Shown: positions 9,624 through 28,200 of the stretch, piece by piece | Layout: every line of letters begins with the position of its first letter | Numbering within the stretch: position 1 is the first letter of the stretch | Source: the human T2T-CHM13v2.0 reference genome, Homo sapiens | DNA: 64,000 nt | NCBI RefSeq assembly: GCF_009914755.1 | Contig: NC_060930.1 | Direction: 5' to 3' (one strand) | The notes under the pieces: generated by a model | The model's input: the letters and a program-made list of their open reading frames with translations, nothing else | What the model was told of the DNA's origin: nothing | Databases searched by the model: none | Made by a program: the position numbers and the translations under genes

Positions 9624-12090
9624 CCAATAACAGGCTCTGAAATTGAGGCAATAATTAATAGCTTACCAACCACAAAAAGTCCAGGACCAGATGGATTCAC
9701 AGGCGAATTCTACCAAAGGTACAAACAGGAGCTGGTACCATTCCTTCTGAAACTATTTCAATCAACAGAAAAAGAGGGAATCCTCCCTCACTCATTTTAT
9801 GAGGCCAGCATCATCCTGATACCAAAGCCTGGCAGAGACACAATAAAAAAAAGAGAATTTTGGACCAATATCCCTGATGAACATCGATGCAAAAATTCTC
9901 AATAAAACACTGGCAAACTGAATCCAGCAGCACATCAAAAAGCTTATCCACCATGATCAAGTGGGCTTCATCCTTGGGATGCAAGGCTGGTTCGAGATAC
10001 GCAAATCAATAAACGTAATCCATCATAGGGAAACCAAAGACAAAAACCACATGATTATCTCAATAGATGCAGAAAAGGCCTTTGACAAAATTCAACAGTG
10101 CTTCATGCTAAAAACTCTTAATAAACTAGGTATTGATGGGACGTATCTCAAAATAATAAGAGCTATTTATGACAAACACACAGCCAATATCATCCTGAAT
10201 GGGCAAAAACTGGAAGCATTCCCTTTGAAAACTGGCACAAGACAGGGATGCCCTCTCTCACCACTCCTATTCAACATAGTCTTGGAAGTTCTGGCCAGGG
10301 CAATTAGGCAGGAGAAGGAAATAAAGGGTATTCAATTAGGAAAAGAGGAAGTCAAATTGTCCCTGTTTGCAGATGACATGATTGTATATTTAGAAAACCC
10401 CATCATCTCAGCCCAAAATCTCCTTAAGCTGAGAGGCAACTTCAGCAGTCTCAGGATACAAAATCAATGTGCAAAAATCACGAGCATTCTTATACACCAA
10501 TAACAGAGAAACAGAGAGCCAAATCATCAGTGAACTCCCATTCACAATTGCTTCAAAGAGAATAAAATACCTAGCAATCCAACTCACAAGGGATGTGAAG
10601 GACCTCTTCAAGGAGAACTACAAACCACTGCTCAATGAAATAAAAGAGGATACAAAGAAATGGAAGAACATTCCATGCTCATGGGTAGGAAGAATCAATA
10701 TCATGAAAATGGCCATACTGCCCAAGGTAATTTATAGATTCAATGCCATCCCCATCAAGCTACCAATGACTTCTTCACAGAATTGGAAAAAAACTACTTT
10801 AAAGTTTGTATGGAACCAAAAAAGAGCCCGCATTGCTAAGTCAATCCTAAGCCAAAACAACAAAGCTGGAGGCATCACGCTACCTGACTTCAAACTATAT
10901 TACAAGGCTACAGTAACCAAAACAGCATGGTACTGGTACCAAAACAGAGATCTAGATCAATGGAACAGAACAGAGCCCTCAGAAATAATGCCGCATATCT
11001 ACAACTATCTGATCTTTGACAAACCTGACAAAAACAAGCAATGGGGAAAGGATTCCCTATTTCATAAATGGTGCTGGGAAAACTGGCTAGCCACATGTAA
11101 AAAGCTGAAAATGGATCCCTTCCTTACACCTTATACAAAAATTAATTCAAGATGGATTAAAGACTTACATGTTAGACCTAAAACCATAAAAACCCTAAAA
11201 GAAAACCTAGGCAATACCATTCAGGACATAGGCATGGGCAAGGACTTCATGTCTAAAACACCAAAAGCAATGGCAACAAAAGCCAAAATTGACAAATGGG
11301 ATCTAATTAAACTAAAGAGCTTCTGCACAGCAAAAGAAAGTACCTTTGGAATGAACAGGCAACCTACAGAATGGGAGAAAATTTTTGCAATCTACTCATC
11401 TGACAAAGGGCTAATATCCAGAATCTACAATGAACTCAAACAAATTTACAAGAAAAAAACAACACCATCAAAAAGTGGGCGGAGGATATGAACAGACACT
11501 TCTCAGAAGAAGACATTTATGCAGCCAAAAGACACATGAAAAAATGCTCATCATCACTGGCCATCAGATAAATGCAAATCAAAACCACAATGAGATACCA
11601 TCTCACACCAGTTAGAATGGCAATCATTAAAAAGTTAGGAAACAACAGGTGCTGGAGAGGATGTGGAGAAATAGGGACACTTTTACACTGTTGGTGGGAC
11701 TGTAAACTAGTTCAACCATTGTGGAATTCAGTGTGGTGATTCCTCAGGGATCTAGAACTAGAAATACCATTTGACCCAGCCATCCCATTACTGGATATAT
11801 ACCCAAAGGATTATAAATCATGCTGCTATAAAGACACATGCACATGTATGTTTATTGCGGCACTATTTACAATAGCAAAGACTTGGAACCATCCCAAATG
11901 TCCAACAATGATAGACTGGATTAAGAAAATGTGGCACATATACACCATGGAATACTATGCAGCCATAAAAAATGATGAGTTCATGTCCTTTGTAGGGACA
12001 TGGATGAAGCTGGAAACCGTCATTCTCAGCAAACTGTCTCAAGGACAAAAAACCAAACACCACATGTTCTCACTCATAGGTGGGTATTGA
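9624..12090 (+). pseudogene. Disrupted L1 ORF2 (RT and C-terminal domains)
   Basis: ORF pieces 9961-10503 (QGCPLSP, FADD motifs), 10469-11491, 11848-12090; frameshifts and a TAA at 11569-11571. Confidence 0.92.
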
Positions 12091-12301
12091 ACAATGAGAA
12101 CACATGGACACAGGAAGGGGAACATCACACACCGGGGACTGTTGTGGGGTCGGGGGAGGGGGGAGGGATAGCACTAGGAGATATAGCTAATGCTAAATGA
12201 CGAGTTAATGGGCGCAGCACACCAACATGTCACATGTATACATATGTAACTAACCTGCACGTTGTGCAAATGTACCCTAAAACTTAAAGTATAACAAAAA
12301 A
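9624..12301 (+). mobile_element. 5'-truncated L1PA3/L1PA4 (~2.7 kb)
   Basis: ORF2 RT to C-terminus, 3'UTR with G-rich tract, short A tail; 13-bp TSD gaatggtctttct at 9611-9623 and 12302-12314. Confidence 0.95.
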
Positions 12302-25247: not shown

Positions 25248-28200
25248 TCAATTCCCAACTATGAGTGAGAACATGTGGTATTTGGTTTTTTGTCCTTGCG
25301 ATAGTTTGCTGAGAATGATGGTTTCCAGTTTCATCCATGTCCCTACAAAGGACATGAACTCTTCATTTTTTATGGCTGCATAGTATTCCATGGTATATAT
25401 ATGCTACATTTTCTTAATCCAGTCTATCATTGTTGGACATTTGGGTTGGTTCCAAGTCTTTGCTATTGTAAATAGTGCTGCAATAAACATACGTGTGCAT
25501 GTGTCTTTATAGCAGCATGATTTATAATCGTTTGGGTATATACCCAGTAATGGGATGGCTGGGTCAAATGGTATTTCTAGTTCTAGATCCCCAAGGAATC
25601 ACCACGCTGACTTCCACAATGGTTGAACTAGTTTACAGTCCCACCAACAGTGTAAAATTGTTCCTATTTCTCCACAACCTCTCTAGCACCTGTTGTTTCC
25701 TAACTTTTTAATGATCACCATTCTAACTGGTGTGAGATGGTATCTCATTGTGGTTTTGATTTGCATTTATCTGATGGCCAGTGATGATGAGCATTTTTTC
25801 ATGTGTTTTTTGGCTGCATAAATGTCTTCTTCTGAGAAGTGTCTGTTCATATCCTTCACCCACTTTTTGATGAGGTCGTTTGTTTTTTTCTTGTAAATTT
25901 GTTTGAGTTCATTGCAGATTCTGGATATTAGCCCTTTGTCAGATGAGTAGGTTGCGAAAATTTTCTCCCATTTTGTAGGTTGCCTATTCACTCTGATGGT
26001 AGTTTCTTTTGCTGTGTAGAAGCTCTTTAGTTTAATTAGATCCCATTTGTCAATTTTGGCTTTTGTTGCCATTGCTTTTGGTGTTTTAGACATGAAGTCC
26101 TTGCCCATGCCTATGTCCTGAATGTTATTGCCTAGGTTTTCTTTTAGGGTTTTTATGGTTTTAGGTCTAACATTTAAGTCTTTAATCCATCTTGAATTAA
26201 TTTTTGTATAAGGTGTAAGGAAGGGATCCAGTTTCAGCTTTCTACATATGGCTAGCCAGTTTTCCCAGCACCATTTATGAAATAGGGAATCCTTTCCCCA
26301 TTGCTTGTTTTTGTCAGGTTTGTCAAAGATCAGATGGTTGTAGATATGCGGCATTATTTCTGAGGGCTCTGTTCTGTTCCATTGATCTATATCTCTGTTT
26401 TGGTACCAGTACCATGCTGTTTTGGTTACTGTAGTGTAGTATAGTTTGAAGTCAGGTAGTGTGATGCCTCCGGCTTTGTTCTTTTGGCTTAGGATTGACT
26501 TGGCAATGTGGGCTCTTTTTTGGTTCCATATGAACTTTAAAGTAGTTTTTTCCAGTTCTGTGAAGAAAGTCATTGGTAGCTTGATGGGGATGGCATTGAA
26601 TCTATAAATTACCTTGGGCAGTATGGCCATTTTCATGATATTGATTCTTCCTACCCATGAGCATGGAATGTTCTTCCATTTCTTTGTATCCTCTTTTATT
26701 TCATTGAGCAGTGGTTTGTAGTTCTCCTTGAAGAGGTCCTTCACATCCTTTGTGAGTTGGATTCCTAGGTATTTTATTCTCTTTGAAGCAATTGTGAATG
26801 GGAATTCACTGATGATTTGGCTCTCTGTTCGTCTGTTATTGGTGTATAAGAATGCTTGTGATTTTTATACATTGATTTTGTATCCTGAGACTTTGCTGAA
26901 GTTGCCTCTCAGCTTAAGGAGATTTTGGGCTGAGATGATGGGGATTTCTAGATATACAATCATGTCATCTGCAAACAGGGACAATTTGACTTCATCTTTT
27001 CCTAATTGAATACTCTTTATTTCCTTCTCCTGCCTGATTGCCCTGGCCAGAACTTCCTACACTATGTTGAATAAGAGTGTTGAGAGAGGGCATCCCTGTC
27101 TTGTGCCAGTTTTCAAAGGGAATGCTTCCAGTTTTTGCCCATTCAGGATGATATTGGCTGTGGGTTTGTCATAGATAGCTCTTATTATTTTGAGATACGT
27201 CCCATCAATACCTAATTTATTGGGAGTTTTTAGCATGAAGGGTTGTTGAATTTTGTCAAAGTCCTTTTCTGCATCTATTGAGATAATCATGTGGTTTTTG
27301 TCTTTGATTCTGTTTATATGCTGGATTACATATATGGATTTGCATATGTTGAGCCAGCCTTGCATCCCAGGGATGAAGCCCTCTTGATCATAGTGGATAA
27401 GCTTTTTGATATGCTGCTGGATTCGGTTTGCCAGTATTTTATTGAGGATTTTTGCATCAATGTTCATCAAGGATATTGTTCTAAAATTCTCCTTTTTGGT
27501 TGTGTCTCTGCCTGGCTTTGGTATCAGGATGATGCTGGCCTCATAAAATGAGTTAGGGAGGATTCCCTCTTTTTCTATTGATTGAAATAGTTTCAGAAGG
27601 AATGGTATCAATTCCTCCTAGTACCTCTGGTCGATTTCGGCTGTGAATCCATCTGGTCCTGGACTCTTTTTGGTTGGTAAGCCATTGATTATTTCCACAA
27701 TTTCAGAGCCTGTTATTGGTCTATTCAGAGATTCAACTTCTTCCTGGTTTAGTCTTGGGAGGGTGGATGAGTCGACGAATTTATCCATTTCTTCTAGATT
27801 TTCTAGTTTATTTGTGTAGAGGTGTTTGTAGTATTCTCTGATGGTAGTTTGTATTTCTGTGGGATCAGTGGTGATATCCCCTTTATCATTTTTTATTGCA
27901 TCTATTTGATTCTTCTCTCGTTTCTTCTTTATTAATCTTGGTAGCAGTCTATCAATTTTGTTGATCCTTTCAAAAAACCAGCTCCTGGATTCATTAATTT
28001 TTTGAAGGGTTTTTTGTATCTGTATTTCCTTCAGTTCTGCTCTGATTTTAGTTATTTCTTGCCTTCTGCTAGCTTTTGAATGTGTTTCCTCTTGCTTCTC
28101 TAGTTCTTTTAATTGTGATGTTAGGGTGTCACTTTTGGATCTTTTCTGCTTTCTCTTGTGGGCATTTAGTGCTATAAATTTCCCTGTACACACTGTTTTG

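What the first reader, a model, noticed from the sequence alone, without database searches (positions are those of the whole stretch)
9624..27720. Two inverted L1PA copies share private mutations including a stop codon: probable non-allelic gene conversion
Seen: L1-A (+, 9624-12301) and L1-B (-, 25024-31160) have different TSDs, so they are independent insertions. They share at least 11 bases that differ from the L1PA consensus as I recall it (A/B positions): 9758/27585, 10194/27147, 10433/26908, 10585/26754, 10657/26682 (N>K), 11063/26279 (N>H), 11198/26144 (E>K), 11506/25832, 11569/25769 (GAA>TAA nonsense in ORF2), 11636/25702, 11868/25470. These are interleaved with differences at apparently subfamily-diagnostic sites (cacacaccgggg vs cacactctgggg; tttgcaatctac vs ttcgcaacctac; tatttagaa vs tatctagaa). 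Inference: a shared nonsense codon is unlikely to come from an active source element, so repeated short-tract conversion between the inverted neighbours is the best explanation.
Basis: partly seen in the sequence, partly recalled or inferred. Interest (0 to 1): 0.72.

Follow-up and report, generated by a model that had tools for sequence, protein, structure and literature searches.

The report
Dead neighbouring L1 copies swap mutations
Two inactive L1 retrotransposon copies about 13 kb apart on human chromosome 6 share rare mutations that an old duplicate of the same region lacks, most likely because DNA repair has repeatedly copied short patches between neighbouring L1s, a process known for Alu and LTR repeats that here seems to reach much further.

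Summary
All 11 shared bases are real and the TAA is in the ORF2 frame. They are not all private: the TAA is in 71 of 11,958 matching L1 copies, and two others are in about 550-700. No source lineage carries the set: none of 53 panel copies has more than two of the 11.

The decisive evidence is an old, 97%-identical duplicate of the whole block at chr6:58.05 Mb, holding the same two insertions (A', B'). 48 sites split A/A' from B/B', so A and B are separate insertions. Yet A and B share derived bases that A' lacks (TAA included), A' and B' share four of their own, and older bases moved A-to-B and B-to-A. Each lies in an interval of at most 39-263 bp between old differences. This fits repeated short-tract non-allelic gene conversion, at a rough 11% of sites per direction since the duplication.

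Three more L1s within 85 kb share rare bases in a non-nested pattern, in both orientations. Genome-wide, carriers of the same rare base cluster (13 same-allele versus 0 cross-allele pairs under 100 kb). Known mechanism, well-dated L1 example, with a longer reach than reported for Alu. Not checked in other assemblies or apes.

The parts
9611..9623 (+). 5' copy of the 13-bp target-site duplication of L1-A
   Evidence: sequence; same junction in duplicate A'
9624..12301 (+). L1-A: 5'-truncated, promoterless L1PA copy (ORF2 3' half and 3' UTR) with frameshifts and stops; carries the older-lineage bases at the sites where A and B differ
12302..12314 (+). 3' copy of the L1-A target-site duplication
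11569..11571 (+). In-frame TAA in ORF2 of A (B: 25769-25767); present in A, B and copy C, absent from A' and B'; interval between old differences at most 129 bp (11532-11660)
9758..10585 (+). Five bases (9758, 10194, 10433, 10435, 10585) present in A, A' and B but not B': inferred A-to-B transfers after the duplication
10657..10657 (+). Base present in A, B, B', C and E but not A': inferred transfer into A after the duplication
11198..11868 (+). Bases shared by A and B only within the quartet (11198 with B' deleted there, 11506, 11569, 11737 at a CpG, 11868): arose after the duplication, direction unknown
10528..11636 (+). Three rare bases (10528, 11063, 11636) in all four of A, A', B, B': inferred transfers before the duplication
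12320..22000 (+). Part of the spacer; 97% identical, same orientation, to chr6:58,053,327-58,063,016 (the duplicate block that dates the events)
25015..25023 (-). 3' copy of the L1-B target-site duplication
25024..31160 (-). L1-B: 6,137-bp near full-length L1PA copy with ORF2 broken by several stops and frameshifts, inserted into an older L1 (24065-25020 and 31163-34746, 70-73% identity)
29121..30134 (-). Open ORF1 of L1-B, 338 aa, with three Pfam L1 ORF1 domains
31161..31169 (-). 5' copy of the L1-B target-site duplication

Best explanation
L1-A and L1-B are separate insertions that share rare bases in short, scattered patches, most likely because non-crossover homologous repair (non-allelic gene conversion) repeatedly used one copy, or another L1 nearby, as template for the other. 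Shown: independent insertion; sharing that cuts across insertion history; the timing of the TAA and three other non-CpG bases after the duplication; the same pattern arising separately in the duplicate block; upper bounds of 39-263 bp on the intervals. Inferred: germline break repair with short tracts or patchy mismatch repair of heteroduplex; DNA-to-DNA rather than cDNA templating, because the promoterless copy A is the apparent donor of 5 bases; a rate of about 8 transfers in 70 opportunities (11%, 95% CI 5-21%, sites not independent) over a branch of 1.5-2% point divergence, so several times the point-mutation rate. No function is implied: both ORF2s are dead.
For: Quartet A, A', B, B': 48 sites A/A' versus B/B' after dropping 2 alignment artefacts. 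Derived non-CpG bases shared by A and B only: 3 plus the TAA, against 0.35 expected by parallel mutation (P=0.004 without the TAA). Shared by A' and B' only: 4 against 0.51 (P=0.001). Cross-block controls: A-B' 0 and A'-B 1, against 0.31 and 0.37. Eight three-of-four sites and three four-of-four sites also need a transfer. A-B share 8 rare non-CpG bases in 2,184 sites, more than any of 923 panel pairs (maximum 7; 675 share none). Five neighbours share bases in non-nested sets (A-B, A-C, A-E, B-C, B-E, C-E, D-E), although E belongs to a different lineage. Outside this locus, same-allele pairs at 3-100 kb: 13 of 3,432, against 0 of 6,579 cross-allele; at 0.1-1 Mb 21 against 2. The A>C-only control gives 10 against 0.
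Against: A and B are barely more alike (95.1% over 9960-12285) than either is to panel copies (mean 94.5%, maximum 95.5%), so homogenisation is weak. Four sites show the crossed pattern A=B', A'=B (two CpG transitions, 11654, 12039). The identical run around the TAA (89 bp) is not beyond that of panel TAA pairs (90th percentile 89). Two panel pairs share 6-7 rare bases through common ancestry. Only one assembly was examined; no reads, other humans or apes. Directions assume no back-conversion from a third copy. Some genome-wide clusters may be duplications (flanks checked for 3 of 8).
Confidence: 0.9

Rival explanations
1. Shared source: A and B came from one source element or sub-lineage that already had these bases, or A is a retrotransposed daughter of B.
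For: Same broad subfamily (both share 12010C, 12017C, 12030C, 12225A). 10657G and 11868T are common minority alleles. Three rare bases are in all four copies.
Against: A' is the same insertion as A and lacks the TAA, 11198A, 11506G and 11868T; B' lacks five bases that B has. A and B differ at seven lineage-correlated sites. No panel copy carries more than two of the 11. Sharing among five neighbours is not nested.
Confidence: 0.03
2. Parallel mutation: the same bases arose independently in A and B.
For: Each base exists elsewhere. It may explain single sites such as CpG 11737, 11506 or 11868, and the crossed sites.
Against: About 0.3-0.5 shared sites expected per pair, 4 seen in each neighbour pair and 0-1 in cross-block pairs. 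The 10433+10435 double is in 5 copies genome-wide, two of them A and B.
Confidence: 0.02
3. Recurrent inversion of the spacer by crossovers between the inverted copies, followed by allelic recombination, moved segments between A and B.
For: Inverted L1 pairs do mediate human inversions (PMC9675761, passages). Crossed sites 11654 and 12039 look like reciprocal swaps.
Against: Each element keeps matching target-site duplications and the spacer is collinear with the duplicate, so there is no net inversion. The shared bases sit in many short intervals. Direct-orientation neighbours share bases too.
Confidence: 0.03
4. Assembly or polishing error mixed bases between A and B.
For: Repeat-rich pericentromeric region; one assembly only; not testable here.
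Against: The copies are about 6% diverged with unique flanks. A different set of shared bases occurs in the duplicate block 4 Mb away. Error would not produce bases that also sit in A' or in C, D and E.
Confidence: 0.02

Closest known systems
Non-allelic gene conversion between neighbouring Alu elements (Aleshin and Zhi 2010; not held, seen only as described in PMC6598467 parts 1-2, and PMC8230782 passages)
   Same: Neighbouring retrotransposon copies share non-diagnostic mutations; the effect depends on distance.
   Different: Here the elements are L1PA copies with 2.7 kb of homology. Partners lie 13-85 kb apart and clustering extends to about 1 Mb, against about 10 kb reported for Alu. Events are dated by an internal duplicate.
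Ectopic conversion among LTR elements on the human Y chromosome (Trombetta et al. 2016, PMC4921805; passages)
   Same: Patchwork from several donors; maximum tracts 14-450 bp (mean 99), like the 39-263 bp bounds here; linked donors favoured.
   Different: That study used population SNP clusters in LTRs on Y. This case is autosomal L1, inferred from fixed or reference differences in one genome.
Non-allelic gene conversion in human gene duplicates (Harpak et al., bioRxiv 10.1101/135152; abstract and Results)
   Same: The same four-sequence logic. Mean tract 250 bp; rate 2.5e-7 per base per generation (CI 0.8-5.0e-7), about ten times point mutation. The rough estimate here is of that order.
   Different: Their rate is for duplicates under 5% divergence and falls with divergence. 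Here donor and acceptor are 5-7% diverged, independently inserted repeats.
L1-mediated inversions and other transposon-mediated rearrangements (PMC9675761; passages)
   Same: Homologous recombination between nearby, oppositely oriented L1s.
   Different: Those are crossover outcomes between L1s of median 97% similarity; here the outcome is non-crossover with no net inversion.

Membership tests
LINE-1 (primate L1PA) insertion | ORF1 and ORF2 (endonuclease, reverse transcriptase) homology | tested here: met
   Pfam ORF1 domains and RVT_1; match to solved ORF2p
LINE-1 (primate L1PA) insertion | A-rich tail and target-site duplication for each copy | tested here: met
LINE-1 (primate L1PA) insertion | Named subfamily (L1PA3, 4 or 5) by consensus diagnostics | not testable with these tools
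   No Dfam or Repbase held. The panel shows only that A is older-like and B younger-like at seven sites; the subfamily names are recalled.
Non-allelic gene conversion | Paralogues share derived bases against their known descent | tested here: met
   quartet patterns with parallel-mutation null
Non-allelic gene conversion | Short tracts bounded by unconverted older differences | tested here: met
   upper bounds 39-263 bp; minimum tracts are mostly single bases
Non-allelic gene conversion | Non-reciprocal transfer without exchange of flanks | tested here: met
   donor keeps the base at the three-of-four sites; target-site duplications and spacer orientation intact; two crossed sites could be reciprocal
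Non-allelic gene conversion | Dependence on distance | tested here: met
   same-allele versus cross-allele rate ratio about 50 (<100 kb), 16 (0.1-1 Mb), 1.8 (1-10 Mb); duplications not fully masked
Non-allelic gene conversion | GC bias of converted bases | not tested
   too few polarised sites
Non-allelic gene conversion | Converted and unconverted alleles seen in populations or related species | not testable with these tools
   no other human or ape assembly held
L1 source sub-lineage | The same set of bases inherited together by unlinked copies | tested here: not met
   0 of 53 panel copies carry more than two of the 11; many are truncated and do not cover all sites

The most novel reading that the evidence does not exclude
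Dead primate L1 copies form local exchange neighbourhoods across the human genome: copies 5-7% diverged and up to about 1 Mb apart convert each other at several times the point-mutation rate, so rare bases, stop codons included, spread sideways through a chromosomal domain. The decay with distance could be a fossil record of germline chromatin contacts, and L1 phylogenies, ages and variant calls in L1s would carry this signal.
Probability: 0.45. Interest if true: 0.65.

Novelty: new member of a known kind. Interest (0 to 1): 0.45.

Why it matters
Gene conversion between repeats is established for Alu, LTRs and segmental duplications, but I found no dedicated account for neighbouring L1s in the ten searches run (one concerned the satellite). 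The library lacks most subscription papers, and I recall single-locus L1 conversion reports and a mouse-cell repair study that I could not check. This locus gives a naturally dated, replicated case. With the genome-wide clustering of three rare alleles it makes a rate-versus-distance curve for L1 conversion directly testable. If the longer reach holds, old L1s do not evolve independently, which bears on subfamily dating, source-lineage inference and clustered SNVs in L1 sequence. No functional consequence is suggested for this gene-free locus.

Tried and rejected
The panel is 53 copies: 26 picked by similarity to A 11450-11700 (three redundant chr9 duplicates dropped) and 27 picked for the TAA. 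Site 11569 was left out of the panel statistics for that reason.

Sub-lineage and parent-daughter readings were rejected. 9918C was dropped as a shared rare base: all neighbours have it and panel cover was poor. MAFFT columns 10769-10789, 11454-11466 and 9843-9853 were dropped as indel artefacts before counting. The match of L038 at 10433 is an alignment-edge artefact.

The identical-run length around the TAA does not discriminate. The chr14 and chr11 TAA pairs share no other rare base; that argues against parent-daughter there but leaves single-base chance open. The search for the duplicate's extent beyond the satellite scored only 4 candidates, missed even the self match and is uninformative. 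A local donor for the cluster of changes in A at 11340-11351 was not found in 114 kb. A preference for inverted partners was not shown: under 100 kb, 5 of 13 outside pairs are inverted. One of three chr4 flank fetches did not reach a 3' end. Aleshin and Zhi 2010 could not be read; bioRxiv supplements of the Harpak paper were not seen.
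Full report
Observation. L1-A (9624-12301, +) is a 5'-truncated copy with a 13-bp target-site duplication. L1-B (25024-31160, -) is a 6,137-bp copy with a different duplication, inserted into an older L1. They align at 94.5%, and all 11 listed positions are aligned and identical. The TAA at 11569 is in frame with the reverse transcriptase and cuts ORF2 after about residue 1102. 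B's ORF2 has several other stops and A has frameshifts, so the stop has no likely functional meaning.

How rare are the bases? Exact-pattern counts in the whole genome: TAA 71 of 11,958 copies with that context; 10194C 43; 11063C 57; 10433G with 10435G 5, two of them A and B; 10657G 549; 11868T 694. So 'private' is too strong. In a panel of 53 other copies none carried more than two of the 11 bases, and 25 of 30 TAA carriers had none of the other ten where covered. A and B share 8 rare non-CpG bases in 2,184 sites; among 923 panel pairs 675 share none and the maximum is 7. A source sub-lineage with this set was not found.

A natural time control. The pattern lists showed two carriers at chr6:58.05-58.07 Mb with the spacing of A and B. 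The spacer matches there at 97% in the same orientation, and the fetched copies have the same junctions as A and B. They are duplicates of the same two insertions: A-A' 96.5%, B-B' 95.7%. In the quartet, 48 sites separate A/A' from B/B' (50, two dropped as alignment artefacts), among them lineage-correlated sites where A has the older-type and B the younger-type base. This confirms independent insertion.

Against that history stand four classes of site. (i) Bases in A and B but not in A': 11198, 11506, the TAA, 11868, and CpG site 11737, which makes a second shared stop. (ii) Four bases shared only by A' and B': 10307, 10729, 11620, 11893. (iii) Eight three-of-four sites, plus 9758 in the poorly covered part, read as A-to-B (9758, 10194, 10433, 10435, 10585), into A (10657), B'-to-A' (10867, 11621) and A'-to-B' (11168). 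(iv) Three bases in all four (10528, 11063, 11636), likely transferred before the duplication. A simulation of parallel mutation from panel-derived site weights expects 0.35 shared bases for A-B (3 seen without the TAA, P=0.004) and 0.51 for A'-B' (4 seen, P=0.001); the cross-block controls gave 0 and 1 against 0.31 and 0.37. Since A' and B' lack the TAA, it arose after the duplication and was then shared.

Tracts and rate. Each shared base lies between older A-versus-B differences that were not erased, which bounds the intervals at 39-263 bp. They could be separate events or patchy repair of fewer, longer heteroduplexes. Of 70 chances for a pre-duplication derived base to cross to the neighbour, 8 did (11%, CI 5-21%; sites are clustered, so this is rough). 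Against 1.5-2% point divergence per branch this is several times the mutation rate, the order reported for gene duplicates (bioRxiv 10.1101/135152). The promoterless copy A is the apparent donor in five cases, which favours DNA-templated repair over a cDNA donor (inference).

More than a pair. Beyond the window lie L1 copies C (+, 70049-72918 in window numbering), D (65417-67627, rearranged) and E (-, 91437-94000). C carries the TAA. Rare bases are shared in non-nested sets: A-B-C-E (10194, 10657), B-C-E (10867), C-E (four more), B-C (two), D-E (three), A-C, A-E, B-E. E belongs to a different lineage. Both orientations occur, so inversion is not required.

Genome-wide. I used the three complete carrier lists and removed this locus, its duplicate, chrY, an X tandem array and one duplicated chr9 pair (142 of 171 carriers kept). 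Carriers of the same base lie within 3-100 kb in 13 of 3,432 pairs, against 0 of 6,579 pairs of different bases; at 0.1-1 Mb 21 against 2; at 1-10 Mb 37 against 40. The 13 pairs form 8 clusters (P=2e-4; P=0.005 with three suspected duplications removed), and the excess holds within one mutation type. For three clusters the 3' flanks were compared and look unrelated (chr4, chr11, chr14). The chr11 and chr14 pairs share only the TAA, unlike parent and daughter. Five clusters were not checked and may be duplications. This is three alleles in one genome: a lead, not a survey.

Against the reading. Overall homogenisation is slight: A-B 95.1% against a panel mean of 94.5% and maximum of 95.5%. Four crossed sites exist. 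The run around the TAA is not unusually long. Directions assume no back-conversion. Nothing was checked in reads, other humans or apes.

Comparison. The process matches non-allelic gene conversion as described for neighbouring Alus (about 10 kb range; PMC6598467 parts 1-2; PMC8230782 passages), for Y-linked LTRs (multi-donor patchwork, maximum tracts 14-450 bp; PMC4921805 passages) and for gene duplicates. Ten literature searches (listings only, except the papers named) showed no study devoted to conversion among neighbouring human L1s. A 2026 L1 pangenome preprint mentions conversion once, as a cause of sequence decay (PMC13192797, passages). The library is incomplete, so absence from print is not shown.

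Verdict. The possible novelty lies in the reach and rate of L1-to-L1 conversion (probability 0.45). Interest 0.45.

Noticed in passing
window 12320-22000 versus G000:C6:58053327-58063016: The block with both L1s has a 97%-identical, same-orientation duplicate 4.08 Mb away, which by my recall of T2T coordinates is on the other side of the chr6 centromere; its full extent was not mapped.
   Followed up: partly
window 38113-64000: Degenerate 75-76 bp tandem satellite (about 68% unit identity; resembles SATR1, name recalled, not tested), mostly unmasked in NCBI's file, with a switch of orientation at about 53715 and an Alu-like insert at about 44950-45200. L1 copies C and D lie in its continuation.
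   Followed up: no
window 29121-30134 (-): L1-B keeps an open 338-aa ORF1 and a full-length 5' UTR although ORF2 is broken in several places.
   Followed up: partly
window 11340-11351 and 10023-10030: Clusters of substitutions in A and A' (five changes in 12 bases; four in 8 bases beside a 3-bp deletion) absent from B and the panel; no donor within 114 kb for the first; possibly template switching or insertion-time errors.
   Followed up: partly
G000:C9:40532443/40551104 and 42746260/42764931: An inverted L1 pair 18.7 kb apart, both carrying the same TAA, present twice in the chr9 pericentromeric region: a possible parallel case.
   Followed up: no
G000:C4:107.75-108.13 Mb; C9:20.9-21.8 Mb; C10:44.92-44.99 Mb: Clusters of 5, 5 and 3 L1 copies carrying the rare base equivalent to 11063C, in mixed orientation; two chr4 copies have unrelated 3' flanks.
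   Followed up: partly
G000:C23:134.05-134.19 Mb: Eight TAA-carrying L1 copies spaced about 17 kb apart with a change of strand, apparently a tandem duplication array.
   Followed up: no
G000:C6:58.15-64.9 Mb: Further carriers of 10194C, 11063C or the TAA near the chr6 centromere (58152943, 58237154, 61075011, 61279469, 61972634, 64883402): more than the genome average suggests; duplication or long-range exchange not resolved.
   Followed up: no
L061, window numbering 65417-67627: L1 copy D is rearranged, with overlapping 3' ORF2 segments in opposite orientation.
   Followed up: no
window 847-2582, 24065-25020, 31163-34746: Fragments of older L1s (64-75% identity to B), one of which hosts L1-B.
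   Followed up: no
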